A stretch of DNA of 64,000 bases from Escherchia phage Stokescottia, in sequence record OR896820.1; one strand, given 5' to 3'. The notes below the pieces were generated by a model. The model saw only the letters and a program-made list of their open reading frames with translations, was not told where the DNA came from and did not search any database. Position 1 is the first letter of the stretch; the number at the start of each line of letters is the position of its first letter. Below, piece after piece: positions 17,897-46,980 of the stretch. A program made the translations under genes and the position numbers.

Positions 17897-17932
17897 AAAA
17901 GCCAGGTCGACTAGCAACCCGGCTGATTAGCT
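17897..17932 (-). terminator. rho-independent terminator after nrdD
   Basis: Minus-strand hairpin AGCCGGG...CCTGGCT followed by UUUUAUUUUAUUU. Confidence 0.55.
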
Positions 17933-33797: not shown

Positions 33798-33872
33798 CGG
33801 GGTGTAGTCTAAGGGAGAGGCAGGAGTCTTCTAAATTCCTTTATGCAGGTTCGAATCCTGTCACCTCGGCCA
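33798..33872 (+). tRNA. tRNA-Arg(TCT)
   Basis: Hand-folded cloverleaf: acceptor CGGGGTG/CACCTCG, anticodon loop CTTCTAA, T-loop TTCGAAT, encoded CCA. Confidence 0.65.
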
Positions 33873-33906
33873 ATTTTATTAACTGTAACTAAAACAAAGG
33901 AAATAT

Positions 33907-34854
33907 ATGTTTGCTACTAAAAACACTAAAGAACTGACTTATGAGCAAAAATTAATGCGTAATATCAAACGTTGGGGTATTGGGGCTGCAGTTGGTTTGG
34001 TAGGTTTAGTTCTGGCTCTTAACTCTTACACTGTTGTTCAAGACGGTACTGTTAAAACCCAGACTTTCCTGGGTAAAGTTGACCCTAGCCCAGTATTACC
34101 CGGCTTTCATATTGTAAATCCTTTTGCTTCTTTCGATACTTTTAGTACTAAAGATATTGCTCTAAAATTAGATAAACTTCAGGTTCCTAGTCAGGATAAG
34201 TTTAAATCCACTGTTGACCTGACTGTTATGTTGCAGTTTGATGGTTCTAAGGCACCGATTAACCGTATTAATGCAGGTACTCAGGATCAAGCATTAGACA
34301 AATATGTAACTGAAAAATTACTGTCTACTATTCGTGAGTTTGGTAAGTCTGTACCTAAAGCACAAGATTTATTTGATGCTAAAATTCAGGCTCAATTGCA
34401 AACTGCAATTCAACAGGAAGTTGAAGAGTATGCACGCCCATATGGTTACACAGTTAAGCAGGTGTTTCTTCAGGATATTACTTTGCCACCGGTAATCATG
34501 GAACAGGTACAGAATACCAAAGTTCGTGAAGAGCAAGTTAATGCTGCGAAAGCTGAGCTTGCTCGTGTTGAACAGGAAGCACAGCAAAAAGTTAAACAAG
34601 CAGAAGCAGATCGTGAAGCTCGCAATAACCAAGCTATTGCTAATGAACGTGACGCAGATGCTAAACTGTACGCAGCTAAGAAAGAAGCTGAAGCTAACGC
34701 CGCACTGCAACGTACCATTACTCCTGAGATGATTCGTTGGAAACAACTGGAAGTTGAGATGATTCGTGCTCAGAAATATCAAGGTGGTGTACCTCAGACT
34801 GTAGTTGGCACTGGCTATGATGGTCAAATGATCATGGATATGCGTAACAAGTAA
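33907..34854 (+). CDS. SPFH/band-7-like membrane protein
   Basis: 315 aa; N-terminal TM helix, then domain followed by Ala/Glu-rich coiled coil. Confidence 0.5.
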   Translation: MFATKNTKELTYEQKLMRNIKRWGIGAAVGLVGLVLALNSYTVVQDGTVKTQTFLGKVDPSPVLPGFHIVNPFASFDTFSTKDIALKLDKLQVPSQDKFKSTVDLTVMLQFDGSKAPINRINAGTQDQALDKYVTEKLLSTIREFGKSVPKAQDLFDAKIQAQLQTAIQQEVEEYARPYGYTVKQVFLQDITLPPVIMEQVQNTKVREEQVNAAKAELARVEQEAQQKVKQAEADREARNNQAIANERDADAKLYAAKKEAEANAALQRTITPEMIRWKQLEVEMIRAQKYQGGVPQTVVGTGYDGQMIMDMRNK

Positions 34855-34878
34855 TAGTTACACGTAATCTTCGAACTA

Positions 34879-34915
34879 AGCCCGCGTTTTCTCCGAGAGC
34901 GCGGGCTTTTCTGTA
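34879..34915 (+). terminator. rho-independent terminator
   Basis: AAGCCCGCG...CGCGGGCTT hairpin followed by TTTCTGTATTT. Confidence 0.6.
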
Positions 34916-34920
34916 TTTAA

Positions 34921-34968
34921 GGAAAAAGAAAAAGCCCCTTACCTTTCGGCAGGGGCTTTTGTTTTTTG
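34921..34968. terminator. bidirectional terminator between convergent genes
   Basis: AGCCCCTT...AGGGGCT hairpin flanked by an A-run upstream and a T-run downstream. Confidence 0.6.
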
Positions 34969-35174
34969 GTTTAGAACCACACTCTCGGTGTACAGCAACC
35001 ACCTATATGGGAGGCCAACCTTGACTGAAAATCTACTCTAGGGGGCAGGATAAGAGTAGGCTTAAAGGCAAACGGATTGAACGCCGGTATTTGCGTAAAC
35101 ATTGCTGGAGAGCAACAACGTGCTACAGGCATTGGGCAGCACGAAACAGATTTTCTGCAACACATAATTCCTCC

Positions 35175-35591
35175 TTAGGAGTTATTACCACCATTTTGAG
35201 CTTTTGCAACTTGGCTTTGGCAGAAGCTATTAAACTTACCCATAAGTGATACAAGCTGCTTCCCGTCCTCTGTCTTTGCGAAGTCTTCGAAAAGGGCTAG
35301 TACTGCCTGTCCTTCCGCAGAAACCTGCGGTTGTTGGGTTTGTTGCTGAACTTGCTGCTGCGGCATCTGTTGCTGCATTTGTTGAGGCATTTGCGACTGC
35401 CCGCTCATTTGCTGCATCATTTGCATAGGACTCACACTTCCAGGGTTTTGCTGGAGTTGTTGCTGCATCTGTTGCGCTTCTGCTAAACGCTGTTGCAACT
35501 GTTGTAAGTAGGGGTTATCCAGACCCGGCATGGGCTGCTGGGAGCCCATACTTTGATTAAGTCCGTTATTTACAAAACCATATTTACTCAT
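35175..35591 (-). CDS. glutamine-rich hypothetical protein
   Basis: 138 aa; long Q/M-rich low-complexity core. Confidence 0.45.
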   Translation of the reverse strand: MSKYGFVNNGLNQSMGSQQPMPGLDNPYLQQLQQRLAEAQQMQQQLQQNPGSVSPMQMMQQMSGQSQMPQQMQQQMPQQQVQQQTQQPQVSAEGQAVLALFEDFAKTEDGKQLVSLMGKFNSFCQSQVAKAQNGGNNS

Positions 35592-35612
35592 AATGGGCTC
35601 CTCCCCTTAATA

Positions 35613-36605
35613 TTAAGCCGGCAGTTTAGCCTGCAGACCAGCCAGAGTCTGAGTGATAGCACCAAGACTTAAAGCGATTTGATTAATTACCTGACCGTTA
35701 GCACCGCTACCCGCAGCGATTGCTTCACGTAGGCGACATGCATCTAACTCATCCTGGATACGCGCAGTAGTTACACCAGCGATCGCAGTCTGAAGCTCAC
35801 AGCAGCACTCAGCAAGCTGGCGTTCGATAGAGTTCTGGTTAGCACACATCTGAGCCTGAACAGCGGCAAACTGGTTATTAGTTTGTAAAGTCTGCTGGAA
35901 AGCGATCTGTGCAGAATCAAACTTATCTTGTGCACGAGCTATCTGGTTAGCTGCGAAAGATTGATCAATCTGGCGAGAAAGATCGAACTGACCCTGAATA
36001 ACGTTGCGAGTTTCCTGGCAGATCTGATTAGACAGATTAGCACCTGTACCATAGATCGTAGTTAGTACAGACTGAGTATCACGGCTCTGGTTTTGGGATG
36101 TCTGGCTAAAACCATTGTTAACTGCGCTTAAAACAGCTCCAGTACCCTGGTTAGCTTCTGTACGAGTAGTGTTAATAGCTGCTAGAATACTAGCGGTATC
36201 TTGGTTCTGAAGTACTGCATCAACTGCGGTACCTTCACCAACTATACCACGTCCACCGAATCCACCGAAACCACCGAATCCGCCTGTTAATAGAGCACCG
36301 ATTAGGATAGCTCCGAATAGTCCCATACCTTCACCACCGAAAGCGCCTGCGTTTGCTGGGTAACCACCCATTAGGCCAGGGAAGCCACTAGTGAATACGT
36401 TTACTGGTTCTTGCATTTTACGTTTTCCATATTTATGACAATACTCATCATCGTCATCTTCTTCATCATCTTCATCGTGTTCACGATGTTTCTCTTCGTA
36501 GGCTCTGACCTTCTCCCACTTTTTCTTATCTGATTCCTCGTGACGGTGCAGTTCTGCTGCAACGCTAGCGACGGTCTCAGGACTCTTAGCTACTTCTTCT
36601 GTCAT
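35613..36605 (-). CDS. glycine-rich hypothetical protein with acidic N-terminal tract
   Basis: DEDDEEDDDDEY tract, GGFGGFGGFGG repeat, Q/N/T-rich tail; ATG at 36605 has AGGAGG SD. Confidence 0.5.
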   Translation of the reverse strand: MTEEVAKSPETVASVAAELHRHEESDKKKWEKVRAYEEKHREHDEDDEEDDDDEYCHKYGKRKMQEPVNVFTSGFPGLMGGYPANAGAFGGEGMGLFGAILIGALLTGGFGGFGGFGGRGIVGEGTAVDAVLQNQDTASILAAINTTRTEANQGTGAVLSAVNNGFSQTSQNQSRDTQSVLTTIYGTGANLSNQICQETRNVIQGQFDLSRQIDQSFAANQIARAQDKFDSAQIAFQQTLQTNNQFAAVQAQMCANQNSIERQLAECCCELQTAIAGVTTARIQDELDACRLREAIAAGSGANGQVINQIALSLGAITQTLAGLQAKLPA

Positions 36606-36812
36606 TTTTTGACACCTCCTAGTATATAGAAAATGTGTGTCTCTTTGATCACTCATCCATAACATATACTTTACACTACCCCAGCGAAAATGTCAAGGGG
36701 TCTTTAAAAATTGCCCCTGGATTTTTAGTGGGGTCACAAATTTTGGTCCTCACCACTTATCTGCTACCCTTAAGTGCCCTATGATTTTCCTCTAAAAAGT
36801 TAAAAAATTTGA

Positions 36813-36841
36813 TTGCTTGAATGCTAAATTCTCTGTATAAT
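36813..36841 (+). promoter_or_regulatory. early-type promoter
   Basis: TTGCTT, 17-nt spacer, TGTATAAT, then CTATAAATTTGAGAGAGG box. Confidence 0.6.
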
Positions 36842-36871
36842 ATATCTATAAATTTGAGAGAGGAACCAAAT

Positions 36872-37390
36872 ATGAATGTTGATGAGCTAACACAGCACCT
36901 CTTATCTAGAGGATTTGATACAGATAAATATCATTGCTGGTTAAGTCCGGAAGGGTGGCTAACAGTCCCGTTGTATGATTTCTCTGGAATGTTGAGGGGC
37001 TATCAAACTTATAATCCTTCTGCTCCAAAAGGTCATGGTAAGTGCCCCTTTGAAGCTAAATACTTTACTTATTCTACTACACAGTGTGTATGGGGACTAG
37101 AAACTCTCAATGGGGATGAAAAAGTAGTATTGATTGCTGAATCTGTATTTAAGGCAGTTGCATTACATAATGCTGGTTATCCAGCCCTAGCAATGTTAGG
37201 TTCTTCTCCAGGAAAAGCGTTATTAAAGCAACTGAAATTACTACCCTTTAAATTGGTAGCTGTCGGGGATAATGATCCTGCGGGTGAAAAATTTGCTAGA
37301 AAATTAAACGGCTTTGTTTCTCCCGTAGATGTGGATGAGATGTCTACCGAAAACTTGAAAAATTTTCTTGCTATGAAGCTAAATTTCTAA
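36872..37390 (+). CDS. Toprim-domain protein
   Basis: 173 aa; Glu in LIAESVF and DxD in VGDNDPAG suggest a Toprim fold. Confidence 0.45.
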   Translation: MNVDELTQHLLSRGFDTDKYHCWLSPEGWLTVPLYDFSGMLRGYQTYNPSAPKGHGKCPFEAKYFTYSTTQCVWGLETLNGDEKVVLIAESVFKAVALHNAGYPALAMLGSSPGKALLKQLKLLPFKLVAVGDNDPAGEKFARKLNGFVSPVDVDEMSTENLKNFLAMKLNF

Positions 37391-37396
37391 TATAAT
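37367..37396 (+). promoter_or_regulatory. early-type promoter driving the tRNA island
   Basis: TTGCTA, 18-nt spacer, TATAAT; overlaps the 3' end of the Toprim ORF; tRNA-Ser begins ~16 nt after the -10. Confidence 0.55.
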
Positions 37397-37411
37397 ATAT
37401 CTTATAAATTC

Positions 37412-37500
37412 GGAAGAATAGCATAACGGTATTGCAGCAGATTGCTAATCTGTCGGTTTGAAATATAGCCTTGTGGGTTCGATTCCCACTTCTTCCGCCA
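37412..37500 (+). tRNA. tRNA-Ser(GCT)
   Basis: Acceptor GGAAGAA/TTCTTCC, anticodon loop TTGCTAA, long variable arm, encoded CCA. Confidence 0.7.
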
Positions 37501-37505
37501 AATTT

Positions 37506-37583
37506 GGTTCTCAAGCTCATATGGTATGAGCACCCGGCTCATAACCGGAAGGTACGTAGGTTCGAATCCTCGGGGAGCCACCA
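37506..37583 (+). tRNA. tRNA with CAT anticodon (Met or Ile2)
   Basis: Acceptor GGTTCTC/GGGAGCC, D-stem GCTC/GAGC, anticodon loop CTCATAA; T-stem imperfect. Confidence 0.55.
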
Positions 37584-37601
37584 ATTAAATAGAGGTCACA
37601 A

Positions 37602-37790
37602 ATGGATCTATATATAGTTTATGTTGTGTTTATTCAAGATAGAGAATACCCGGATGAATATAAAAAAGGATATAGGTTAGCCAGAGCTACATCTGAAGCC
37701 CAAGCTATGGATAAAGTGGCGGATTATATGATTACGGTAGAAAACGTACACTATATCGACTACCTTGAAGCCTCAAAAGTAATTGACTAA
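37602..37790 (+). CDS. hypothetical protein
   Basis: 62-aa ORF inside the tRNA island. Confidence 0.35.
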   Translation: MDLYIVYVVFIQDREYPDEYKKGYRLARATSEAQAMDKVADYMITVENVHYIDYLEASKVID

Positions 37791-37799
37791 GGAGACTAT

Positions 37800-37985
37800 A
37801 TGTCTAAGTTTCAAGAACTCAAGCAAGAGCTAGAAGAATGTGCCTGCCCTGAGTGTAGGGGAATTGGTGAAAGTTCTGATGCAGAAGCAGGAGATACTTT
37901 TTGCAATATCTGGGTTTGCCCAAATTGCAAGGGTACAGGTATTAATCCTAACTGCGGTATTTCCCTAGATATTGAACGAGGATAA
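37800..37985 (+). CDS. hypothetical zinc-ribbon-like protein
   Basis: 61 aa with CxxC...CxxC (CACPECRG...CPNCKG). Confidence 0.4.
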   Translation: MSKFQELKQELEECACPECRGIGESSDAEAGDTFCNIWVCPNCKGTGINPNCGISLDIERG

Positions 37986-38086
37986 TACCTGTGAAACTAA
38001 AAGATTATTATATTGGTTGGTTTGTAGGACTAGTAGTAGGATTTTCACTAGGCTATAATATGTATCAACTAATAAACTGATTACAC

Positions 38087-38163
38087 GGGGGTGTAATCGA
38101 ATTGGCATAGGTACTGGACTTAAAATTCAGGTTTTGTGGGTTCGAATCCCACCACCACTACCA
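38087..38163 (+). tRNA. tRNA-Leu(TAA), atypical short variable loop
   Basis: Anticodon loop CTTAAAA, T-arm GTGGG TTCGAAT CCCAC, encoded CCA; one acceptor mismatch; 5-nt variable loop. Confidence 0.5.
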
Positions 38164-38338
38164 AATTAAGGAAATAAGATGTATAGACATCCACCTCCGC
38201 CAACACGTCGTTCTAGAGAAGTTATTCTCATGGAATTGACTAAAAACTTCAAGGCAACCCTTGAAGATAGAGATCTAGGCACGGATGAAGACATTGATTT
38301 TATTTGTAGACTATTAAAGATGAAACTGGAGAAACAAC

Positions 38339-38545
38339 ATGGCTAATCCTGAAATTACCGCACAACGTTTCATGCTTAAAGGTATGATTGCTGAGGCGGG
38401 TATAACTCAAGAGGTTGCAGATTTTCATAAGCAATTTCTTGATATTATAACTCTAGCTAAAGAGACTGGAGAAAAAGAGCACGGAGCAGCAATTATGGCT
38501 ATATCTCTTATTAGTCTAGACTTGGCTGAAGAATCTGGAGTTTAG
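38339..38545 (+). CDS. hypothetical protein
   Basis: 68-aa ORF. Confidence 0.35.
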   Translation: MANPEITAQRFMLKGMIAEAGITQEVADFHKQFLDIITLAKETGEKEHGAAIMAISLISLDLAEESGV

Positions 38546-38575
38546 CTCCTCCAAACAGAATTTTTAAAAATGTAC

Positions 38576-38605
38576 TTGCCTTTTGCTTTAAATTTCTGGT
38601 ATAAT
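38576..38605 (+). promoter_or_regulatory. early-type promoter
   Basis: TTGCCT, 18-nt spacer, TGgTATAAT, then TATAAATTGATGAAGGAG box. Confidence 0.55.
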
Positions 38606-38635
38606 AATTATATAAATTGATGAAGGAGTTAACTA

Positions 38636-38911
38636 ATGCAAAATCGTGTTATAGCTGCTGGTATTGAAAGTGCAATCTGTAAATCCTGGGAAGGCTGGGA
38701 AGGTGAGATTGAATGGCTTTATTTCTACGATGTAGAACTTCTGCCGGAAATTAAAGCTAAATGTATTGAAGCTGGCATGGCTCCAGATGCAAAAGCTGAT
38801 ATTGATATTTCAATGTCTGAACTTAAAGGTCGTGTAATCACTGTTAGTGATGAGGGCGAAGAAGTTTTTGAACTTCCGTTCTCCTTAACTGTCACTCCTA
38901 AGTTCGACTAA
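38636..38911 (+). CDS. hypothetical protein
   Basis: 91-aa ORF. Confidence 0.4.
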   Translation: MQNRVIAAGIESAICKSWEGWEGEIEWLYFYDVELLPEIKAKCIEAGMAPDAKADIDISMSELKGRVITVSDEGEEVFELPFSLTVTPKFD

Positions 38912-38947
38912 CTAATACAGCATTGGGCAAGTTCTTTAAAATTTGAC

Positions 38948-38976
38948 TTGCCCAATACTATAAAACTTGATATAAT
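38948..38976 (+). promoter_or_regulatory. early-type promoter overlapping a hairpin
   Basis: TTGCCC, 17-nt spacer, TGaTATAAT; -35 lies in the inverted repeat TTGGGCAAG...CTTGCCCAA. Confidence 0.45.
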
Positions 38977-39042
38977 ATTTATCTAATTTGGAAACATATT
39001 TAAAAGTGTTTAAATGAGAATTTTTTGAATACTTCTAAATAT

Positions 39043-39130
39043 GGGGAAATATTCTGTAAGTGGTAGCAGAGCTGACTGTAAATCAGTTGTCATTGCGACT
39101 CGGGTGGTTCGACTCCATCTTTCCCCACCA
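39043..39130 (+). tRNA. tRNA-Tyr(GTA)
   Basis: Acceptor GGGGAAA/TTTCCCC, anticodon loop CTGTAAA, long variable arm, encoded CCA. Confidence 0.7.
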
Positions 39131-39137
39131 ATTTAAT

Positions 39138-39212
39138 GCACCTATCGTCTAGCGGTTAGGACACCACTCTTTCACAGTGGGAACACGAGTTCGATCCTCG
39201 TTGGGTGTGCCA
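39138..39212 (+). tRNA. tRNA-Glu(TTC)
   Basis: Acceptor GCACCTA/TGGGTGT, anticodon loop CTTTCAC, T-arm ACGAG TTCGATC CTCGT, CCA. Confidence 0.7.
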
Positions 39213-39221
39213 ATTAATAAT

Positions 39222-39292
39222 TGGGGTACGCATAGGTTGCAAATGGGCCTCCAAAACCCATGAAAAGGTTTCGAATACCTTTACCCCTGCCA
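39222..39292 (+). tRNA. tRNA-Trp(CCA)-like
   Basis: Anticodon loop CTCCAAA, T-arm AAGGT TTCGAAT ACCTT, CCA; mismatches at 1-72 and in the D-stem. Confidence 0.45.
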
Positions 39293-39298
39293 AAATTT

Positions 39299-39373
39299 GC
39301 ACCTTTAGCTGAGATGGATTAGCGCTTGCCTGAAGAGCTTGAGAGGTTCGTTCGATACGAACAGGGTGCACCA
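39299..39373 (+). tRNA. tRNA-Phe(GAA)-like
   Basis: Acceptor GCACCTT/AGGGTGC, D-stem GCTG/TAGC, loop CTGAAGA; anticodon stem has two mismatches. Confidence 0.5.
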
Positions 39374-39390
39374 AATTGAAGGAGCTGCTG

Positions 39391-39663
39391 ATGCATCCTG
39401 AAAACTTCTTTATTTACTGCGCGGATAAGTCGCTGAAACGTAGAATTAACAAAGTCTATCATTATCGTGCTAGTCAACAGCCTTATGTATATGCTTTTGA
39501 CGGTGATCACATTCCCCTAGAACAATTATCTTGTGATTACATGATATTGAAGAACTTTGACGAGACGAAGATCTCAAGCGTTCATAATCGACAGAATCCA
39601 TTAACGTGGAAATATAAGAAGAAAAAGAAAGGCATCAAATTCTTAAAAAATGTAGTTGCTTAG
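39391..39663 (+). CDS. hypothetical protein
   Basis: 90-aa ORF starting at the first ATG after tRNA-Phe. Confidence 0.4.
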   Translation: MHPENFFIYCADKSLKRRINKVYHYRASQQPYVYAFDGDHIPLEQLSCDYMILKNFDETKISSVHNRQNPLTWKYKKKKKGIKFLKNVVA

Positions 39664-39684
39664 TTTCCAAAAGTTCTGTATAAT
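39656..39684 (+). promoter_or_regulatory. early-type promoter
   Basis: TTGCTT, 17-nt spacer, TGTATAAT, then CATAAATTGAACTGGAG box. Confidence 0.6.
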
Positions 39685-39713
39685 AATTACATAAATTGAA
39701 CTGGAGAAGCAAC

Positions 39714-39938
39714 ATGACAGAACAAGAATTGAATGAACGTAAGCTGGTAATGCTTCGCTTACTAAATATTTTCTCTGGTATGGACGGTGGAATTGACTTT
39801 GTTCTTCTACGTTCTTTCGTAGAAGAAGCCGAAGGCGAATCTATCACTAAAATCCTTAAACACATGGGATTACTTTTAGATGCTGCTAATGTGGCTACTG
39901 AATATAAACTAGAAGATCTACCGGAGCGTGTTAAATGA
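39714..39938 (+). CDS. hypothetical protein
   Basis: 74-aa ORF. Confidence 0.4.
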   Translation: MTEQELNERKLVMLRLLNIFSGMDGGIDFVLLRSFVEEAEGESITKILKHMGLLLDAANVATEYKLEDLPERVK

Positions 39939-40126
39939 AACGATTAGTTAGATTTAAGTGTTGTGGTTCTGAACATACTTTCACACATCTTCGTGAATTT
40001 AAAATGTGTGATTGTGGTAAATCAGGCTATGACTCAGGAGATGGGTTCTACACCCGTACTCTAGGGAACTTCAATGATCTAGAATTTGAAGATCTCGAAA
40101 AACAAGATAAATCGACCGTTGGCTGA
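39935..40126 (+). CDS. hypothetical zinc-ribbon-like protein
   Basis: 63 aa with CC...CDC Cys pairs. Confidence 0.35.
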   Translation: MKRLVRFKCCGSEHTFTHLREFKMCDCGKSGYDSGDGFYTRTLGNFNDLEFEDLEKQDKSTVG

Positions 40127-40188
40127 ATGGCTTAGGCGAAGGATTGCAAATCCTTTTTATGTGAGTTCAAATCTCATGCGGTCGTCCA
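40113..40188 (+). tRNA. tRNA-Cys(GCA)
   Basis: Acceptor CGACCGT/GCGGTCG, anticodon loop TTGCAAA, T-arm GTGAG TTCAAAT CTCAT, CCA; overlaps the end of the preceding ORF. Confidence 0.65.
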
Positions 40189-40340
40189 ATTTGCTGAAAG
40201 AATTGTTAAATCAATTCAGGCACGCGTAGGAACACTGTCTCCGTAATTGAAAGATGGGGCACGGTTTGGAGAGGTATGCCGCTACACGCTACGGTGCTAA
40301 CTCCGTCTAGGTGAAAATCCTAGTCAGCAATGTAAATTTA

Positions 40341-40423
40341 GGGTCGTTAGCCAAGCGGTTTGGCGGCGGATTGTTAATCCGTGTCGAAAGACAACGTAGG
40401 TTCGAATCCTACACGGCCCGCCA
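40341..40423 (+). tRNA. tRNA-Asn(GTT) with extended variable hairpin
   Basis: Acceptor GGGTCGT/ACGGCCC, D-stem GCCA/TGGC, loop TTGTTAA, 13-nt variable region GTCGAAAGACAAC, CCA. Confidence 0.6.
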
Positions 40424-40525
40424 AATTCTGTGTAGAGTTAAGTAAACCGGTAGCCAATCAGCTATCATTGCTGACATCGAATTCAGCCACAGATACCATT
40501 TTCATTAATAACTGAGGAAACAAGC

Positions 40526-40711
40526 ATGTCCAAGAATGTAATTGCACAGTTAGAAGTTCATCGTGATAGCACTATCAACAATATTGAAGTTGAGAAGAAA
40601 TACATCGAAGAACTTAAACATGATATACTAGTAAGTCTTAATCGTCTTAATGTACGAAAAGAGTTTCTTAAAGAACTTAATGCAGCTATTGAAAAACTCA
40701 AAGCTGAGTAA
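40526..40711 (+). CDS. hypothetical protein
   Basis: 61-aa ORF, probably coiled coil. Confidence 0.35.
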   Translation: MSKNVIAQLEVHRDSTINNIEVEKKYIEELKHDILVSLNRLNVRKEFLKELNAAIEKLKAE

Positions 40712-40720
40712 ATGAATTAT

Positions 40721-40797
40721 GCGACCGGGGCTGGCTTGGTAATGGTACTCCCCTGTCACGGGAGGGAATGTGGGTTCAAATCCCATCGGTCGCGCCA
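40721..40797 (+). tRNA. tRNA-Asp(GTC)
   Basis: Acceptor GCGACCG/CGGTCGC perfect, anticodon loop CTGTCAC, T-loop TTCAAAT, CCA. Confidence 0.7.
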
Positions 40798-40823
40798 AAC
40801 TAAACTAGCACGAGAAAAATGCT

Positions 40824-41171
40824 ATGATTAATGCTAAAGAAGAATTGTTACTTGCCCTAAAGAATACTAATTCTGAAGTTAAGTGTATTAAGATAGAATT
40901 CGGTTATTATGGGGACAAAGAAGTTTGGGTATTACCCGTAGGTTATACAGAAAAAGATATTGAAGATTTTCTAAATAATCTAGACTTTAAATATGATTCT
41001 GGTTTCGGTGGACAATTGCTTTATGGTAACGTATGGTTTACTGATGGAACTTGGTTAGAACGTGGTGAATATGATGGTTCTGAATGGTGGGAGTATAAGA
41101 CTACACCAGCAATCCCTGAGGAATGCCGAACAATTAATGGTGAGGTAGATAATACTTTACGGTTAAACTAA
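40824..41171 (+). CDS. hypothetical protein
   Basis: 115-aa ORF. Confidence 0.4.
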   Translation: MINAKEELLLALKNTNSEVKCIKIEFGYYGDKEVWVLPVGYTEKDIEDFLNNLDFKYDSGFGGQLLYGNVWFTDGTWLERGEYDGSEWWEYKTTPAIPEECRTINGEVDNTLRLN

Positions 41172-41563
41172 TAAAATTTCAGTGCAGAACACGGAGCTAG
41201 CAATTCGGAAGTGCTGACTCATGATAAGCTGCCTATGTACTTGCGAAGCGGTCGTGTCCAAGACTCGGACTCTTGCACTGAAAACAATCAAACATTCTAG
41301 CGTGGTTGATGGGGAAACCAGCTTGGCGAGGGCAGAAGCTCGTTCGATTCGAGTGAAAGAATGGTTCTCGTAAGTCCGCACAAGTGATAACAGGTTCGAG
41401 TCCTGTCTAGAATGACACTATAAAGTTTACTTATTATGTAGGTTCCGGTAGATCGGCGGGTCTATTCTGGCATTTAAGAGAGGTCTCGCAAACTTCTTTG
41501 TCAGCCGTGGGGTTGGTAGCCTCCAGGCGGCCTACACAATAAGTAAATTTATTAAAAATTCAT

Positions 41564-41592
41564 TTGCTATTCTGCTTAATTCTCTGTATAAT
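41564..41592 (+). promoter_or_regulatory. early-type promoter
   Basis: TTGCTA, 17-nt spacer, TGTATAAT. Confidence 0.6.
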
Positions 41593-41624
41593 ATATTTTA
41601 TAAAGTGAAGAGAAGGAAAGCAAA

Positions 41625-41783
41625 ATGAAACACAAGATAGCTCAAGTTTTTATGGCATTATGGTGTATGCCAATAGCTGTAACAGCTTTTAATCTAGATA
41701 CTTTTACTATAGAAGAAAAATATATCGGATTAGTTAGCGGCTTTAGTATACTTGGCTTATCTTTGTTGTGGTTGAAGAAATAA
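41625..41783 (+). CDS. hypothetical small membrane peptide
   Basis: 52-aa hydrophobic ORF right after promoter and SD; below track cut-off. Confidence 0.3.
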   Translation: MKHKIAQVFMALWCMPIAVTAFNLDTFTIEEKYIGLVSGFSILGLSLLWLKK

Positions 41784-41787
41784 TATT

Positions 41788-41865
41788 CTCCGTGTAGCTC
41801 AGTTTGGCCAGAGCGTTTCGTTTGGGGCGATAGGGTCGGGGGTTCAAATCCTCCCACGGAGACCA
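41788..41865 (+). tRNA. tRNA-Pro(TGG)
   Basis: Acceptor CTCCGTG/CACGGAG, D-stem GCTC/GAGC, loop TTTGGGG, CCA. Confidence 0.65.
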
Positions 41866-41871
41866 AACAAT

Positions 41872-41949
41872 TGCGGGTTAGATCTCTGGTAGAGATCGCT
41901 AGTCTCATAAGCTAGAAAGAGGTAGGTTCGATTCCTGCACCCGCTTCCA
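41872..41949 (+). tRNA. tRNA with CAT anticodon (Met or Ile2)
   Basis: Anticodon arm CTAGT CTCATAA GCTAG, T-arm GTAGG TTCGATT CCTGC, CCA; 1-72 mismatch. Confidence 0.55.
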
Positions 41950-42138
41950 TTTTAATAGGGGATTTCGAAATGAAAGTATTTCGATTAGTAGTAAGTGACA
42001 AACGTTTAGGTAAGAATACCTCAAAATCATTACTTGCTCATTATGGTAAAAATTGGGATGAAGTAATGGTAGAGTTTAATACTAATCACCCTTACTTGAA
42101 AGTTCACTCTATTAAAGAAGTATACAATGGTTACTAAT

Positions 42139-42217
42139 AGATCGCTAGCTCAATAGGTTTAGTAGCATCCGACTTTTAATCGGAAGGTTCTGGGTTCGAG
42201 TCCCAGGCGATCTACCA
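42139..42217 (+). tRNA. tRNA-Lys(TTT)
   Basis: Acceptor AGATCGC/GCGATCT, anticodon arm TCCGA CTTTTAA TCGGA, CCA. Confidence 0.7.
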
Positions 42218-42236
42218 ATTTCAAGAAAAAACGCAG

Positions 42237-42265
42237 TTGCTTGATGCTTAATTTCTTGTTATAAT
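42237..42265 (+). promoter_or_regulatory. early-type promoter with long RNA leader
   Basis: TTGCTT, 17-nt spacer, TGTTATAAT, then TATAAATTGATGAGGAG box; no ORF before tRNA-Ala. Confidence 0.6.
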
Positions 42266-42503
42266 ATTTATATAAATTGATGAGGAGAAATCCTCATCAT
42301 AGTTCACTAAGGTATTAGCTCGACCTAGGACTGGCTGCCAAAAAGCACGATCCCCATGATTCGGGAGAAGTTCTAGATTGGTCCACTAGATTCAGCGGCA
42401 ACTGAATAGTGTATTGGGTTTGCGAGATGACGCAGTTCCTTCCGCTCGAAGCGAAGGTGCTGTAGTTACGCCGAGCTAATAGCCTTAGTAAACTAAAGAA
42501 TTT

Positions 42504-42582
42504 GGGGAATGGGTCTGCATGGAGTGGACACCTCGCTTGCACCGAGGACATCAGAACGGTTCGATTCCGTTATTCTCCACCA
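42504..42582 (+). tRNA. tRNA-Ala(TGC)
   Basis: Acceptor GGGGAAT/ATTCTCC with G3-U70, anticodon arm CCTCG CTTGCAC CGAGG, CCA. Confidence 0.7.
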
Positions 42583-42587
42583 AATAC

Positions 42588-42664
42588 GCGTGATTGATGG
42601 AATTGGCATACATACCGTCCTTAGAAGTCGGGTTTTGAGGGTTCGAATCCCTTGTCACGCACCA
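42588..42664 (+). tRNA. tRNA-Leu(TAG), atypical short variable loop
   Basis: Acceptor GCGTGAT/GTCACGC, loop CTTAGAA, T-arm GAGGG TTCGAAT CCCTT, CCA; 5-nt variable loop. Confidence 0.5.
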
Positions 42665-42776
42665 AATTTGATGGTCAGAGTAAATTAAACCTACTATCTC
42701 GGTTGAGCTGTTTTAATGGGTTCGAATCCCAGCGAGGCGTAACTGCCTGGTGTGATAGAGGCATCATCTTATTATT

Positions 42777-42867
42777 GGAAGAGCAAATCGAATTGGCGAC
42801 GAAAACCGCTTGGAAAGTGGCTGACTGGTAAAACGGCTTGAGAGTTCAAATCTCTCCTCTTCCGCCA
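42777..42867 (+). tRNA. tRNA-Ser(GGA)
   Basis: Acceptor GGAAGAG/CTCTTCC, loop TTGGAAA, long variable arm, T-arm GAGAG TTCAAAT CTCTC, CCA. Confidence 0.65.
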
Positions 42868-42886
42868 AACACTTGAGGTAATAATA

Positions 42887-43234
42887 ATGCTAGCAAAAGA
42901 TAAAGCTCTAGAGTTTTTAGCATCTTTAGATGAAGATAAGATTATAGATGCTGCTGAAAAAGCTGGAATGCCAGATTTAACATATCTGGAACGTGCTATT
43001 ATTGCTCGTGATAAACTACAGAAAGAGTTTGCTATTGCTCAGGAGGAGTTTTATACTCGCTATAACGCTCTTACTAAGCAAATTGAAAATGAGTGTTCTC
43101 ATACTTGGGGAGTAACAGAAAACCTAGGTAATGATCACGATGGCTGGTCTAAAGTAAAAATTACCTACTACCATCGTAGGACTTGTAAAATTTGTGGAAA
43201 AGTAGAAAACTTCACTAGTACGAGTGACTATTAG
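42887..43234 (+). CDS. hypothetical protein
   Basis: 115-aa ORF with C-terminal CxxC pair. Confidence 0.4.
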   Translation: MLAKDKALEFLASLDEDKIIDAAEKAGMPDLTYLERAIIARDKLQKEFAIAQEEFYTRYNALTKQIENECSHTWGVTENLGNDHDGWSKVKITYYHRRTCKICGKVENFTSTSDY

Positions 43235-43247
43235 TATAATAAATACT

Positions 43248-43337
43248 AGAAGATAGGACGTAGTGGTACGTAACTGGTCTTGAAAACTAGCCCGCTGTAG
43301 TGATACGGTGATGGTTCGACTCCATTATCTTCTGCCA
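43248..43337 (+). tRNA. tRNA-Ser(TGA)
   Basis: Acceptor AGAAGAT/ATCTTCT, anticodon arm CTGGT CTTGAAA ACTAG, long variable arm, CCA. Confidence 0.65.
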
Positions 43338-43889
43338 ATTAACTATAAGGAAATCTTATGAGCAAAACAGTTACTGTAACAATGAAGGATGGTAAAAAAT
43401 TTAAAGCATGTCTTCATGAAACAGATAAGGGATGGATGGCTTATTTGCCACACCTAGATTCCACCAGGTACGGAATGACCCAACGTGAAGCTATTGTTGA
43501 TGCTTTAAATGAGGCTTCTGCTGGTTTATAAAAATTCTTGAAGTATGCCGGAATTGGTAGACGGGGCTGCCTAAAAGGTTTATAGAGAACATCCACTCTC
43601 TACAACATACCTCATAAAGCGGCTGAGATAAATGGTCTATCTCGTGAAGGTTCAAGTCCTTCTGCTTCTTGATACATCTATGGCTCAAAGTGTAACGGTG
43701 CTATTTGATGCTCTTAGTAAGACTTCCCCGACATGCGTTCGGGAGTAAGCTGCTAAGGCTAGAGTAGAAGAGTTTCTGAGAGCCGCCACAATTGAAAATT
43801 CGTACTCGTCTTGAGCTGCGTGCAATAGGAGATAACTTGATTAGTATTCTAGAACATGCTAATTGAGGAAGGTTTCGCTAACCCTGCGA

Positions 43890-43966
43890 GTTTTCAATTG
43901 TGGCTATATCATAATTGGTTAATGATCCTGATTGTGAATCAGGCCTATGTGGATTCGAGTTCCACT
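43890..43966 (+). tRNA. tRNA-His(GTG)
   Basis: Acceptor GTGGCTA/TAGCCAC, D-stem TCAT/ATGA, anticodon arm CCTGA TTGTGAA TCAGG, CCA. Confidence 0.7.
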
Positions 43967-44001
43967 AGCCACCCCAAATTAACTTAAATAGGAAATAATA
44001 T

Positions 44002-44202
44002 ATGGCTGATTTCTGCAAACAATGCTCCATTGATATGTGGGGCAGAGATACTGGTGATCTTTCTGGTTTGATTACAGAAGCCGAAGTTAAAGAAGGCTAC
44101 GGTGCTGTTGTAATCTGTGAAGGTTGTGGTGTTATTCGTGTAGATCATGAAGGCAAACGTCTAGAAGAACCAGAACCAATAGCCACGGTTCCTGTAGAGT
44201 AA
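44002..44202 (+). CDS. hypothetical zinc-ribbon-like protein
   Basis: 66 aa with CKQC...CEGCG. Confidence 0.4.
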   Translation: MADFCKQCSIDMWGRDTGDLSGLITEAEVKEGYGAVVICEGCGVIRVDHEGKRLEEPEPIATVPVE

Positions 44203-44210
44203 AGAATTAT

Positions 44211-44286
44211 TGGAGTGTAGATCAATTGGCAGATCGTCGGCCTCTGACTTCGAAGGTTCCTGGTTCGATCCCAGGCACTCCAGCCA
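44211..44286 (+). tRNA. tRNA-Gln(CTG)
   Basis: Acceptor TGGAGTG/CACTCCA, loop CTCTGAC, T-arm CCTGG TTCGATC CCAGG, CCA. Confidence 0.65.
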
Positions 44287-44292
44287 AATAAT

Positions 44293-44368
44293 TGGAGAGT
44301 AGTGTAACGGTTAGCACAACGGCCTTTGACTCCGTTAATGGTAGGTTCGATTCCTCCTTCTCCAGCCA
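44293..44368 (+). tRNA. tRNA-Gln(TTG)
   Basis: Acceptor TGGAGAG/TTCTCCA, loop CTTTGAC, CCA; paralog of the preceding tRNA. Confidence 0.65.
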
Positions 44369-44376
44369 AACAATAA

Positions 44377-44452
44377 GCGGTTAAGCACACGGGTTGTGTC
44401 GCAGGCCTTCCAAGCCTCGCTGAGTAGGGTTCGATTCCCTCTAGCCGCTCCA
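44377..44452 (+). tRNA. tRNA-Gly(TCC)
   Basis: Acceptor GCGGTTA/TAGCCGC, anticodon loop CTTCCAA, T-loop TTCGATT, CCA. Confidence 0.6.
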
Positions 44453-44468
44453 ACTTTAAGGAAACGTT

Positions 44469-44690
44469 ATGCACGTTTTTGAGTTTCGTAATAAAAGTAC
44501 CGATAAACGAGTTATTGTTATTGGAGAAACATACCGAGCATATGAACAAACTGACGGCTCTGTTATCCTGAATGATGAGAAAGGGGGTTTTAGCTTTTAT
44601 CCCAAAGAAACTTACGAAGAATTTCGTACAAAGTTTCTTCTACCAGACTGGCTAGAAGTAGCGCAGCAACGAGAACCCGAAGATGGCTGA
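44469..44690 (+). CDS. hypothetical protein
   Basis: 73-aa ORF. Confidence 0.4.
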   Translation: MHVFEFRNKSTDKRVIVIGETYRAYEQTDGSVILNDEKGGFSFYPKETYEEFRTKFLLPDWLEVAQQREPEDG

Positions 44691-44855
44691 TAACCTAAAA
44701 GTCAAGATCGATAAACAAAAGAAACGTGTAGAAGTAGAGATTGGTGAAGAACGTGTAGCCTTCACCTTTGAATTTCTACAACAAATGGCAATGACAGTCA
44801 TGACTGATAAGTCTCCTGTTATTGAAAAAGAAATCCCGTTGAAATAACGGGTTCT

Positions 44856-44942
44856 GCTGGGTTGGCAGAATGGTTGAATGCACCTGATTTGTAATCAGGA
44901 GGAGTAATCCCATTGCAGGTTCGAATCCTGTGCCCAGCACCA
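44856..44942 (+). tRNA. type-II tRNA (long variable arm) with apparent TGT anticodon
   Basis: Acceptor GCTGGGT/GCCCAGC, 3-bp D-stem with 11-nt D-loop, anticodon arm CCTGA TTTGTAA TCAGG, 15-nt variable arm, CCA. Confidence 0.5.
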
Positions 44943-44956
44943 ATTTAAGGACTAGT

Positions 44957-45124
44957 ATGTTTAAACTGTTAGTAGTTATCTGGTATAGTCAATCAAATAG
45001 AGCGAATACCTCCCACGTTATAGACTTTAATACTAAAAATGAAGCTGAAAAAGCATATGCTAATTTAATAGAACGTAATAAAGAATCTCGTAGTATAGTT
45101 TATGAAGTGACTAAACTTTATTAA
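44957..45124 (+). CDS. hypothetical protein
   Basis: 55-aa ORF from the first ATG after the tRNA. Confidence 0.3.
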   Translation: MFKLLVVIWYSQSNRANTSHVIDFNTKNEAEKAYANLIERNKESRSIVYEVTKLY

Positions 45125-45131
45125 AAATTCA

Positions 45132-45160
45132 TTTGCTTTCTCTCTTATTTCTTGTTATAA
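45132..45160 (+). promoter_or_regulatory. early-type promoter
   Basis: TTGCTT, 17-nt spacer, TGTTATAAT, then TATAAATTAATGAGAGGG box. Confidence 0.6.
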
Positions 45161-45191
45161 TACTTGTATAAATTAATGAGAGGGAAACCAA

Positions 45192-45485
45192 ATGAAACGT
45201 TATCTTTCTGTTATGTTCCAAACTGGTGGTCAACGCTATACCTATGAATTTCCATCTTCTTGGAAAATCAAAGAAGGTGATCAAGTAGTTGTACTAACAC
45301 CGCGTGATGGGTACAAGGTAGTAACGGTTAAGCAAGTCTTTCCAAAAGATTATACACCATCTAAGTCTATTAATTATAAGATGATTCATGGTGTAGTTCG
45401 TCAAGTACCCCGAGTGGACATCGAGGTCAAAGTAGATAAAGATGGTAAACTTAAATATACCTCTTGCTTAGAAGAGTTGCTATAA
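45192..45485 (+). CDS. hypothetical protein
   Basis: 97-aa ORF. Confidence 0.45.
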   Translation: MKRYLSVMFQTGGQRYTYEFPSSWKIKEGDQVVVLTPRDGYKVVTVKQVFPKDYTPSKSINYKMIHGVVRQVPRVDIEVKVDKDGKLKYTSCLEELL

Positions 45486-45691
45486 TGAGGATTACTTTTA
45501 CAGAAAAGATCATGAGTAATGGTGTTATGATCATTACTGCATGGGATGGTAATCAGTGGTGTAGTGTTTCAGGTATTAAGCCTGAAGAACAAACACTAGA
45601 AAATATCTCAAAGATTAAGCGAAGAATGGCAGAACGTGCACGACTTCCAGGTGCACCTAGAAATGGCAAACGTTCTGCAATTAAATGTTAA
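45485..45691 (+). CDS. hypothetical protein
   Basis: 68-aa ORF; TAATG stop/start overlap with the previous gene. Confidence 0.4.
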   Translation: MRITFTEKIMSNGVMIITAWDGNQWCSVSGIKPEEQTLENISKIKRRMAERARLPGAPRNGKRSAIKC

Positions 45692-45692
45692 T

Positions 45693-45769
45693 GCTTCGGT
45701 AGCTTAGCGATCTAAAGCACTCGGCTGATAACCGAGAGATCGGGGGTTTAAATCCCTCCCGGAGTACCA
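45693..45769 (+). tRNA. tRNA-Ile(GAT)
   Basis: Acceptor GCTTCGG/CCGGAGT, anticodon arm CTCGG CTGATAA CCGAG, T-loop TTTAAAT, CCA. Confidence 0.65.
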
Positions 45770-45865
45770 AATTTAGGAATTAAGACTATGCGTCCAGGAA
45801 AGTTTAAAAAAGCTAATTGGTCTAAAGAGTATAAAGAATACTTACTTAGTCTAGTAAAACATAAC

Positions 45866-45941
45866 AGTTAGTTGGCAGAGTGGTTATGCACCTCCTTCAT
45901 ACGGAGCGACTACAGTGGTTCAAATCCACTACTAACTACCA
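45866..45941 (+). tRNA. tRNA with CAT anticodon (third copy)
   Basis: Acceptor AGTTAGT/ACTAACT, anticodon loop TTCATAC, T-arm AGTGG TTCAAAT CCACT, CCA. Confidence 0.55.
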
Positions 45942-46173: not shown

Positions 46174-46215
46174 AGAATAAAGAGCTGAGCCAAATTCTAA
46201 CATCGGGGAGATCTA

Positions 46216-46584
46216 ATGAAAGCATATCAAAATCTTAAATCTGGCGTAATTAACCTTGTTCATGAAAATCAGATTATTCAGCTATACTCCGACAACGGTG
46301 AACTTAAACAGAAAGTTCTAGTTGAAGATCTAGAAGGTATCACACCACAATTCGATCCTGAAGCCTTCCGTGAAGTTAAGGTGGAAGTCGCACCTCAAAT
46401 CGAAGGTGGTCAGCACCTAAATGTCAATGTGTTAAGTCGTGATCAGCTTTTGGATGCACAGAAACACCCTGAAAAATACCCTCAATTAACTATCCGTGTA
46501 TCTGGCTACGCTGTTCGATTTAACGCGCTGACTCGTGAACAACAGAACGACGTTATTAGTCGTACATTTACTCAGGCGATGTAA
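46216..46584 (+). CDS. grcA: autonomous glycyl-radical cofactor, GrcA/YfiD-like
   Basis: C-terminal half [11 protein letters not shown]...[37 protein letters not shown] matches E. coli GrcA as I recall it, including RVSGY. Confidence 0.8.
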
Positions 46585-46665
46585 TGGGGTTTGGATACGA
46601 TTTCTCCCAGCTACGCAAGGTAGTCGAGCAAACTCCATTTATCTCCCAAGTTTTAGGAGAAATGT

Positions 46666-46980
46666 GTGGATCGAGCATTGAGACGCCATCACCGGCAACG
46701 TGTGAAGAACAACCGCAAGAAGTATTGGACAGTCTTCCCACATGAAGAAAGCCCTAAGCGGTTAGGTATTATCACTACTACTCCTTGCATCTGTTCTTGT
46801 TGGATGTGTGGGAACCCTCGCAAATATTATAAGAATAGTAAAGCAGGCATGAAAATCTCGGAGATTAGGAAAATGGAAGCAATGATTATGGGCATCTCAA
46901 ATGATGAATTTGATGGCTTTGTAGGATTCGGAGAAGGAATCAGCTCAGGCTGTTTCGAAGATGAACGCCCCGATCTGTAA
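46666..46980 (+). CDS. hypothetical basic Cys-rich protein
   Basis: 104 aa, apparent GTG start after AGGAGA; CICSCWMCG motif. Confidence 0.35.
   Translation: MDRALRRHHRQRVKNNRKKYWTVFPHEESPKRLGIITTTPCICSCWMCGNPRKYYKNSKAGMKISEIRKMEAMIMGISNDEFDGFVGFGEGISSGCFEDERPDL

What the first reader, a model, noticed from the sequence alone, without database searches (positions are those of the whole stretch)
46216..46584. Phage-encoded GrcA-like glycyl-radical spare-part protein with no activase in the window
The C-terminal 60 residues of this ORF match the glycyl-radical domain of E. coli GrcA/YfiD nearly residue for residue ([10 protein letters not shown]). The phage also encodes NrdD, which has its own glycyl-radical site, about 27 kb away. 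No NrdG or PflA-type activase (CxxxCxxC) is evident here, so host activases are presumably used. The protein may repair oxygen-damaged host PFL or phage NrdD during infection.
Basis: partly seen in the sequence, partly recalled or inferred. Interest (0 to 1): 0.55.

Follow-up and report, generated by a model that had tools for sequence, protein, structure and literature searches.

The report
Known phage GrcA-like glycyl-radical spare part
This is the T5-type phage copy of a small, already known "spare part" protein that replaces the oxygen-destroyed tip of the host's pyruvate formate-lyase; it is real and correctly recognised, but it is ordinary and already annotated.

Summary
The ORF at 46216..46584 (+) is real. 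It encodes 122 aa whose C-terminal 62 residues are 48/62 identical to E. coli GrcA/YfiD and 49/62 identical to the PflB C-terminus, with an exact [10 protein letters not shown] loop. Pfam Gly_radical scores 3.7e-18.

The window is a T5-like phage (Tequintavirus). The gene is the ortholog of T5.056 (95% aa) and a full-length homolog of T4 vs.6/Y06I (52% aa; PHROG 1209, 8e-48). Wagner et al. 2001 showed that Y06I is activated by host PFL-AE and restores oxygen-cleaved PFL.

Homologs occur in 1,585 phage records. Many are already annotated "autonomous glycyl radical cofactor" or "pyruvate formate-lyase".

The "no activase" claim holds. No radical-SAM CX3CX2C protein and no NrdG or PflA homolog is found in the window or in the complete genome of a 97.6%-identical relative. 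nrdD without nrdG in T5-like phages was already reported in 2013.

Repair of phage NrdD is unlikely. The protein shows no similarity to NrdD. It carries the PFL-type loop (RVSGYAV), whereas the phage NrdD carries the RNR-type loop (RVCGYLG).

Interest is low.

The parts
46216..46584 (+). CDS (122 aa plus stop) for the T5-type autonomous glycyl-radical 'spare part' protein. It is the ortholog of T5.056 and a homolog of T4 vs.6/Y06I and of bacterial GrcA/YfiD.
   Evidence: ORF. Pfam Gly_radical 3.7e-18. PHROG 1209 full length, 8e-48. 95% aa identity to T5.056 and 52% full-length identity to T4 vs.6. 100% identical proteins exist in Salmonella phages Th1, HMD-7 and vB_Sen_I1.
46205..46210 (+). 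Shine-Dalgarno-like GGGGAG, 5 nt upstream of the ATG.
   Evidence: Read directly from the sequence.
46216..46395 (+). N-terminal region (residues 1-60) of the phage type. It begins MKAYQ, as in T4 vs.6, and is not matched by the bacterial GrcA profile.
   Evidence: The TIGR04365 match covers only residues 50-122. The alignment with T4 vs.6, GrcA and PflB is. In YfiD the equivalent 60 residues are disordered and are needed for binding to cleaved PFL and for efficient activation (PMC8683613).
46396..46581 (+). C-terminal glycyl-radical domain (residues 61-122). It is co-linear with PflB 699-760 and with YfiD 66-127.
   Evidence: 49/62 identical to PflB and 48/62 to GrcA. PDB sequence hits are 6OWR (YfiD, 1.4e-30) and 1H16/2PFL (PFL, 5e-27).
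46504..46506 (+). Codon GGC for Gly97, the predicted radical-bearing glycine in the loop RVSGYAV. It is equivalent to PflB G734 and YfiD G102.
   Evidence: Sequence. It is an invariant column in alignment A1.
17932..19806 (-). Context: phage class III ribonucleotide reductase NrdD (624 aa, no ATP-cone), with its own RNR-type glycyl loop RRVCGYLG. No nrdG lies next to it.
   Evidence: Pfam NRDD 1.4e-171 and Gly_radical 9.4e-23. 54% identity to E. coli NrdD. The neighbours are small ORFs, SIR2, HAD, DUF7415 and HNH.

Best explanation
[quoted passage not shown] The proposed mechanism is as follows. When traces of oxygen cleave active host pyruvate formate-lyase at its radical glycine (G734), the enzyme loses its C-terminal 26 residues. 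The phage protein docks its C-terminal domain (residues ~61-122, a near copy of PflB 699-760) into the damaged enzyme. The host activase PflA (PFL-AE, a radical-SAM enzyme) then installs a radical on Gly97, and pyruvate to acetyl-CoA + formate activity is restored. This keeps fermentative ATP and acetyl-CoA supply running in the infected enteric host under anaerobic or microaerobic conditions. It would also keep up the supply of formate, which is the reductant of formate-type class III RNRs such as E. coli NrdD; the phage NrdD is 54% identical to that enzyme. The phage brings no activase of its own: the spare part would depend on host PflA and the phage NrdD on host NrdG. What is shown here: the sequence identity, the domain architecture, orthology to T5.056 and T4 vs.6, purifying selection, and the absence of an activase. 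What is taken from the literature on homologs: activation by PFL-AE and rescue of cleaved PFL. What is my own inference: the benefit to the phage and the formate link to NrdD.
For: The glycyl-radical domain is present with an exact [10 protein letters not shown] loop. Identity is 74% to GrcA and 79% to the PflB C-terminus. The best PDB sequence hits are YfiD 6OWR and PFL 1H16/2PFL. There is a full-length match to PHROG 1209 and 52% full-length identity to T4 vs.6 = Y06I. Y06I and YfiD are the two spare-part proteins validated biochemically: PFL-AE installs the radical and they rescue O2-cleaved PFL (Wagner et al. 2001, summarised in PMC8683613). PFL-AE accepts the RVSGYAV loop but not the RNR loop RVCGYLG (PMC13450708). 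The gene is conserved in 444 T5-like records at the DNA level and 1,585 phage records at the protein level. Compared with T5.056, 27 codons differ synonymously and 6 non-synonymously, which indicates purifying selection. No activase is found in the window or in the whole SP33 genome. E. coli K-12 carries pflA and nrdG. The phage NrdD is 54% identical to the E. coli enzyme, with a nearly identical Gly-loop region.
Against: No experiment exists on any T5-type protein; all function is by homology. The N-terminal ~50 residues are not recognisably similar to YfiD's N-terminus (the TIGR04365 match starts at residue 50). That region is the part of YfiD needed for binding to cleaved PFL and for efficient activation, so docking details could differ. 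The score against the curated GrcA equivalog model is below its cutoff (121 vs 170 bits). However, the experimentally validated T4 Y06I also falls below it (151 bits). The physiological benefit to the phage has, to my knowledge, never been demonstrated, even for T4.
Confidence: 0.8

Rival explanations
1. It acts on a different PFL-family target or state than oxygen-cleaved PflB. One candidate is the paralog TdcE (2-ketobutyrate formate-lyase). Another is intact but radical-less PflB, to which it would donate a radical domain.
For: Some GenBank records label the gene '2-ketobutyrate formate-lyase'. [quoted passage not shown] The T5-type C-terminus ends TFTQAM, like PflB (TFTQSM) and unlike GrcA (TFTESL).
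Against: These are variants of the same mechanism rather than true alternatives. The GenBank labels are automated name transfers from the shared C-terminal domain. I did not compare the sequence with TdcE.
Confidence: 0.12
2. It is a spare part for the phage's own NrdD, replacing the NrdD glycyl-radical C-terminus after oxygen cleavage.
For: It co-occurs with nrdD in the same genome. All glycyl-radical enzymes suffer the same oxygen damage, and the authors of PMC8683613 speculate that spare parts for other GREs may exist.
Against: There is no detectable similarity to the phage NrdD (best E = 6). The Gly loop is RVSGYAV (PFL type), whereas NrdD has RVCGYLG preceded by a four-Cys cluster (CGKC...CPIC). 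Activases discriminate between these loops. The domain is 79% identical to PflB.
Confidence: 0.03
3. It is a decoy or modulator. It would soak up host PflA, or occupy PFL, so as to re-route host pyruvate metabolism rather than repair it.
For: The phage-type N-terminus differs from the bacterial one. The N-terminus governs binding and activation in YfiD.
Against: The T4 homolog, which has the same MKAYQ-type N-terminus, reconstitutes PFL activity in vitro. The radical glycine and the whole catalytic-loop context are strictly conserved, which a mere blocker would not require.
Confidence: 0.03
4. It is a non-functional relic of a captured 3' end of host pflB or grcA.
For: The C-terminal domain is clearly of host origin.
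Against: The frame is intact and has a good Shine-Dalgarno sequence. The gene is conserved across hundreds of T5-like genomes and across T4-like phages. Codon differences from T5.056 are 27 synonymous against 6 non-synonymous.
Confidence: 0.02

Closest known systems
Bacteriophage T5 gene T5.056 (YP_006884.1, 'putative acetyltransferase-related protein', matched to InterPro IPR001150) and its orthologs in Tequintavirus and related T5-like phages
   Same: The length is the same (122 aa), identity is 95%, and the last 62 residues are 62/62 identical. The position is the same, just after the tRNA-Ile/tRNA-Met end of the tRNA cluster and before the T5.055 homolog. Proteins 100% identical to the window's exist in Salmonella phages Th1, HMD-7 and vB_Sen_I1.
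   Different: Essentially nothing. There are six amino-acid differences, all in the N-terminal half.
Bacteriophage T4 vs.6 = Y06I (NP_049730.1), autonomous glycyl radical cofactor
   Same: The homology is full length (52% identity, E 5e-39), with the same MKAYQ start, the same size (120 vs 122 aa), and membership of the same PHROG 1209. Y06I is experimentally validated as a PFL spare part activated by host PFL-AE.
   Different: The T4 C-terminal 62 residues are 59/62 identical to E. coli GrcA. The T5-type is only 48/62 to GrcA and 49/62 to PflB. T4 carries its own nrdG next to nrdD, whereas the T5-type genome has none.
E. coli GrcA/YfiD (P68066; NMR structure 6OWR)
   Same: It is a stand-alone protein of about 14 kDa. 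Its C-terminal glycyl-radical domain is 74% identical over 74 residues, with an identical [10 protein letters not shown] loop.
   Different: The N-terminal ~50 residues are not detectably similar. The TIGR04365 score is 121 bits against a 170-bit cutoff, while E. coli GrcA scores 234.
C-terminus of pyruvate formate-lyase PflB (residues 699-760)
   Same: Identity is 79% (49/62), including the Gly734 loop and the C-terminal helix.
   Different: The phage protein lacks the ~700-residue catalytic barrel and cannot be a formate-lyase on its own. GenBank labels such as 'pyruvate formate-lyase' for this gene are over-annotations.

Membership tests
Pfam PF01228 Gly_radical domain | Profile score above the gathering threshold (22.2 bits) | tested here: met
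   66.4 bits, E 3.7e-18, residues 62-103.
[quoted passage not shown] | A small stand-alone protein (~120-130 aa) made only of a short N-terminal region plus the C-terminal glycyl-radical domain, with no catalytic barrel | tested here: met
   The ORF is 122 aa. The domain occupies residues ~61-122.
[quoted passage not shown] | A C-terminal domain co-linear with PFL 699-760, carrying the PFL-type radical loop RVSGYAV | tested here: met
   49/62 identical to PflB, with an exact [10 protein letters not shown].
[quoted passage not shown] | Radical installation by PFL-AE and restoration of activity to O2-cleaved PFL | not testable with these tools
   This is shown only for YfiD and T4 Y06I (Wagner et al. 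2001, via PMC8683613).
NCBIfam TIGR04365 (bacterial GrcA equivalog) | Whole-protein score at or above the curated cutoff of 170 bits | tested here: not met
   121 bits, with only residues 50-122 matched. The validated T4 Y06I also fails (151.1 bits) and T5.056 scores 121.5, while E. coli GrcA scores 234. The cutoff therefore separates bacterial GrcA from the phage branch, not function from non-function.
Phage vs.6/Y06I family (PHROG 1209) | A full-length profile match and full-length similarity to T4 vs.6 | tested here: met
   PHROG 1209 at 8e-48, residues 1-122 against profile positions 1-121 of 121. 52% identity to T4 vs.6 over the full length.
Glycyl-radical-enzyme activase (radical SAM: NrdG / PflA) anywhere in the window | A CX3CX2C [4Fe-4S] motif in a protein of about 150-250 aa that is homologous to NrdG or PflA | tested here: not met
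   The only motif hit in a reading frame of 60 aa or more (stop to stop) is CICSCWMC, in the 104-aa ORF 46666..46980 (107 aa stop to stop), which has no Pfam hit. tblastn, phmmer --max and hmmsearch with E. coli NrdG, T4 NrdG and PflA gave nothing above 10 bits in the window or in the full SP33 genome. The SP33 annotation lists no activase.
Class III RNR catalytic subunit NrdD (context gene 17932..19806) | A match to the NRDD profile and the RNR-type Gly loop RVCGYLG | tested here: met
   PF13597 at 1.4e-171. 54% identity to E. coli NrdD, including VTRRVCGYLG.

The most novel reading that the evidence does not exclude
The spare part and the phage NrdD may form one functional unit. By keeping host PFL alive in microaerobic gut conditions, the phage would secure formate, which is the reductant of formate-type class III RNRs. 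That would sustain phage dNTP synthesis. Both glycyl-radical proteins would be activated by two different host activases (PflA and NrdG), which the T5 lineage does not encode. The phage-specific N-terminus (MKAYQ...), shared with T4 vs.6 but not with bacterial GrcA, might tune docking or activation.
Probability: 0.25. Interest if true: 0.3.

Novelty: already known. Interest (0 to 1): 0.1.

Why it matters
It matters little beyond annotation hygiene. The gene is a conserved auxiliary metabolic gene of T5-like and T4-like enterobacterial phages, and its T4 homolog was characterised biochemically in 2001. Three points are useful.

- The many GenBank labels "pyruvate formate-lyase", "2-ketobutyrate formate-lyase", "ribonucleotide reductase subunit" and "acetyltransferase-related" for this 122-aa protein are misnomers. 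The gene should be called an autonomous glycyl radical cofactor (vs.6/Y06I-like).
- T5-like phages depend on host PflA and NrdG for both of their glycyl-radical proteins. This predicts host-genotype-dependent phenotypes under low oxygen.
- To my knowledge, the in vivo benefit of phage spare parts has never been measured, so a simple deletion experiment remains open.

Tried and rejected
- **Batch Pfam scan of the 70 ORFs of 100 aa or more.** Gly_radical was hit by exactly two proteins (NrdD and this one). Only the top 25 of 69 families are printed, so on its own this cannot exclude Radical_SAM/Fer4_12. I replaced it with the motif scan and with direct phmmer/hmmsearch/tblastn searches.
- **Weak hit to E. 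coli NrdG.** It scored 10 bits, E 0.028, over 25 residues (GKDxWxW). It lies in SP33's small ORF just downstream of nrdD (L002 25349..25639). That ORF has no Cys cluster, and the window carries a different ORF at that position. I judged it chance.
- **The 104-aa ORF immediately downstream (46666..46980).** It has a Cys cluster, PCICSCWMCGNPRKYY, and I considered it as a mini-activase. I rejected this because it is too short, has no Pfam hit, and matches only PHROGs of unknown function.
- **Single-sequence AlphaFold2 model of the protein.** Mean pLDDT was 34.4 and pTM 0.24, so it is uninformative about whether the N-terminal half is ordered. I did not run a fold search on it.
- **Promoter and terminator scan around the gene.** It found nothing above shuffle expectation.
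- **Literature searches.** I looked for a T5-specific discussion of this gene and found none. The T4 genome review (PMC150520) is not held.
- **Searches not run.** I deliberately did not spend the large protein-database searches, because the answer would not change the verdict.

Full report
**Observation.** The window holds an ATG-to-TAA ORF at 46216..46584 on the + strand, encoding 122 aa. A GGGGAG Shine-Dalgarno sequence sits 5 nt upstream of the ATG.
- Pfam finds one domain, Gly_radical (PF01228), at 66.4 bits, E 3.7e-18, against a threshold of 22.2.
- BLASTP against E. coli K-12 GrcA gives 55/74 identities, E 3e-39 (GrcA fetched).
- BLASTP against E. coli PflB gives 49/62 identities over PflB 699-760, E 4e-33.
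- The loop [10 protein letters not shown] is exact, and the radical glycine is G97 (codon 46504..46506).
- Sequence search of the PDB returns the YfiD NMR structure 6OWR first (1.4e-30), then PFL structures 1CM5/1H16/2PFL (5e-27).

**What the window is.** The 2.3 kb around the gene is 97.7% identical to Salmonella phages PHB06 and S124 and 97.6% identical to SP33. It matches 444 phage records, all T5-like where listed. SP33 is classified Demerecviridae; Markadamsvirinae; Tequintavirus. The window also carries:
- 21 tRNA genes at 33.8-45.9 kb;
- nrdA, nrdB, DHFR, thymidylate synthase and phoH;
- a class III RNR gene, nrdD, at 17932..19806 (-) (Pfam NRDD 1.4e-171).

**Orthologs and prior knowledge.**
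- In phage T5 the ortholog is T5.056. It is 95% identical in protein, and its last 62 residues are identical. The record annotates it as [quoted passage not shown].
- The protein matches PHROG 1209 over its whole length (8e-48).
- It aligns end to end with T4 vs.6 (52% identity, same MKAYQ start). RefSeq names vs.6 "autonomous glycyl radical cofactor GrcA".
- vs.6 is Y06I. Wagner et al. 2001 (BBRC 285:456) showed that YfiD of E. coli and Y06I of T4 receive a glycyl radical from the host PFL activase and reconstitute oxygen-cleaved PFL. PMC8683613 summarises this, and states that these two are the only validated spare-part proteins.
- tblastn finds homologs in 1,585 phage records: T5-like, T4-like, and Klebsiella, Aeromonas, Vibrio and Providencia phages. 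Proteins 100% identical occur in Salmonella phages Th1, HMD-7 and vB_Sen_I1. Many of these are already labelled "autonomous glycyl radical cofactor".

The feature is therefore already known and already annotated.

**Activase question.**
- A six-frame scan for CX3CX2C finds only one occurrence in a reading frame of 60 aa or more (stop to stop). It is CICSCWMC, in the 104-aa ORF 46666..46980 (107 aa stop to stop), which has no Pfam hit and matches only PHROGs of unknown function.
- tblastn with E. coli NrdG and PflA found nothing significant in the window or in the three loci that together cover the whole 110-kb SP33 genome.
- phmmer --max and an HMM that added T4 NrdG also found nothing significant there.
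- The best hit, at 10 bits, is a chance match in an SP33-specific small ORF.
- The SP33 annotation lists no activase.
- The genes next to nrdD are three small ORFs, a SIR2-family protein, a HAD phosphatase, two DUF7415 paralogs and an HNH endonuclease.
- Dwivedi et al. [quoted passage not shown]
- T4, by contrast, has nrdG beside nrdD.

**Which enzyme is repaired?**
- The protein shows no similarity to the phage NrdD (best E = 6).
- Its Gly loop is the PFL type, RVSGYAV, while the phage NrdD carries RRVCGYLG.
- According to the 2026 review PMC13450708, PFL-AE installs a radical on an RVSGYAV peptide but not on RVCGYLG.

The target is therefore host PFL, or a close paralog, and the activase is host PflA. 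Repair of NrdD is very unlikely. The phage NrdD is 54% identical to E. coli NrdD. It lacks the N-terminal ~110 residues that hold the ATP-cone. Its Gly-loop segment is almost identical to the E. coli one, which is consistent with activation by host NrdG.

**Mechanism (inferred from homologs).**
1. Oxygen cleaves activated PFL at G734.
2. The spare part binds the cleaved enzyme.
3. PflA installs the radical on the spare part's glycine, and activity returns.

[quoted passage not shown] In the phage protein this region is of a phage-specific type:
- the bacterial GrcA profile TIGR04365 matches only residues 50-122 and scores 121 bits against a cutoff of 170;
- the validated T4 Y06I also falls below this cutoff (151 bits), while E. 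coli GrcA scores 234.

Failing this cutoff therefore marks the phage branch, not loss of function. Compared with T5.056, the gene differs at 27 synonymous and 6 non-synonymous codons, which indicates purifying selection.

**A detail seen on the way.** The C-terminal 62 residues of T4 vs.6 are 59/62 identical to E. coli GrcA. The T5-type is 48/62 to GrcA and 49/62 to PflB, and ends TFTQAM, like PflB (TFTQSM). The two phage lineages share the N-terminus but have differently related C-termini. This may reflect recombination with host genes in the T4 lineage. I did not follow this up.

**Why a phage would carry it (inference).** T5-like and T4-like phages of enteric bacteria replicate in low-oxygen gut conditions. 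PFL supplies acetyl-CoA, ATP (via acetate kinase) and formate. Formate is the reductant of E. coli-type class III RNR (Mulliez et al. 1995, listed in the references of PMC13450708). That review also mentions formate consumption by formate-dependent class III RNR. Keeping PFL alive could therefore also feed the phage NrdD. This link is plausible but untested.

**What failed or was uninformative.**
- A single-sequence AlphaFold2 model was useless (pLDDT 34).
- The promoter and terminator scan was at background level.
- Literature searches found no paper that discusses the T5-type gene specifically.

**Verdict.** Novelty: already known. Interest: low (0.1).

Noticed in passing
window 46584..46745 (+) and 46666..46980 (+): A 53-aa ORF starts at an ATG that overlaps the stop codon of the GrcA-like gene (TAATG) and hits PHROG 31464 (1.2e-34). 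It overlaps, out of frame, the 104-aa ORF that corresponds to T5.055. That ORF hits PHROG 4499 and PHROG 6828, has no Pfam hit, and carries the Cys cluster PCICSCWMCGNPRKYY. The two cannot both be fully coding as drawn, and the function of either is unknown.
   Followed up: partly
window 14504..19806 (-): nrdD has no nrdG beside it. Downstream lie three small ORFs, a SIR2-family NAD-dependent deacylase (16422..17237), a HAD_SAK_2 phosphatase domain protein (15929..16441), two tandem DUF7415 paralogs (15498..15926 and 15099..15488) and an HNH endonuclease (14504..15019).
   Followed up: partly
window 17620..17832 (-) versus L002 (SP33) 25346..25627: The small ORF directly downstream of nrdD differs between the window and the otherwise ~97%-identical phage SP33, so this is a variable slot. 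The SP33 version gives a 10-bit match to NrdG residues 87-111, which I judged to be chance.
   Followed up: partly
L008 (T4) 6558..6920 versus window 46396..46581: The C-terminal 62 residues of T4 vs.6 are 59/62 identical to E. coli GrcA. The T5-type is 48/62 to GrcA and 49/62 to PflB. Both phage proteins nevertheless share the MKAYQ-type N-terminus. This suggests either a separate acquisition of the C-terminus or recombination with host genes in the two phage lineages.
   Followed up: partly
window 33798..45941 (+): A cluster of 21 tRNA genes, including two tRNA-Met, two tRNA-Gln, two tRNA-Ser and two tRNA-Leu, is interspersed with small ORFs. This is typical of the T5 tRNA region. The GrcA-like gene lies 275 nt after the last tRNA (tRNA-Met, 45866..45941).
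   Followed up: no
window 17932..19806 (-): The phage NrdD (624 aa) aligns to E. coli NrdD only from residue ~113 of the host enzyme onward. It therefore lacks the N-terminal ATP-cone region and presumably lacks dATP/ATP overall-activity regulation.
   Followed up: no
GenBank records of T5-like phages: The same 122-aa protein is variously annotated as 'pyruvate formate-lyase', '2-ketobutyrate formate-lyase', 'ribonucleotide reductase subunit', 'acetyltransferase-related protein', 'glycine radical' or 'hypothetical protein'. Most of these names are misleading.
   Followed up: yes
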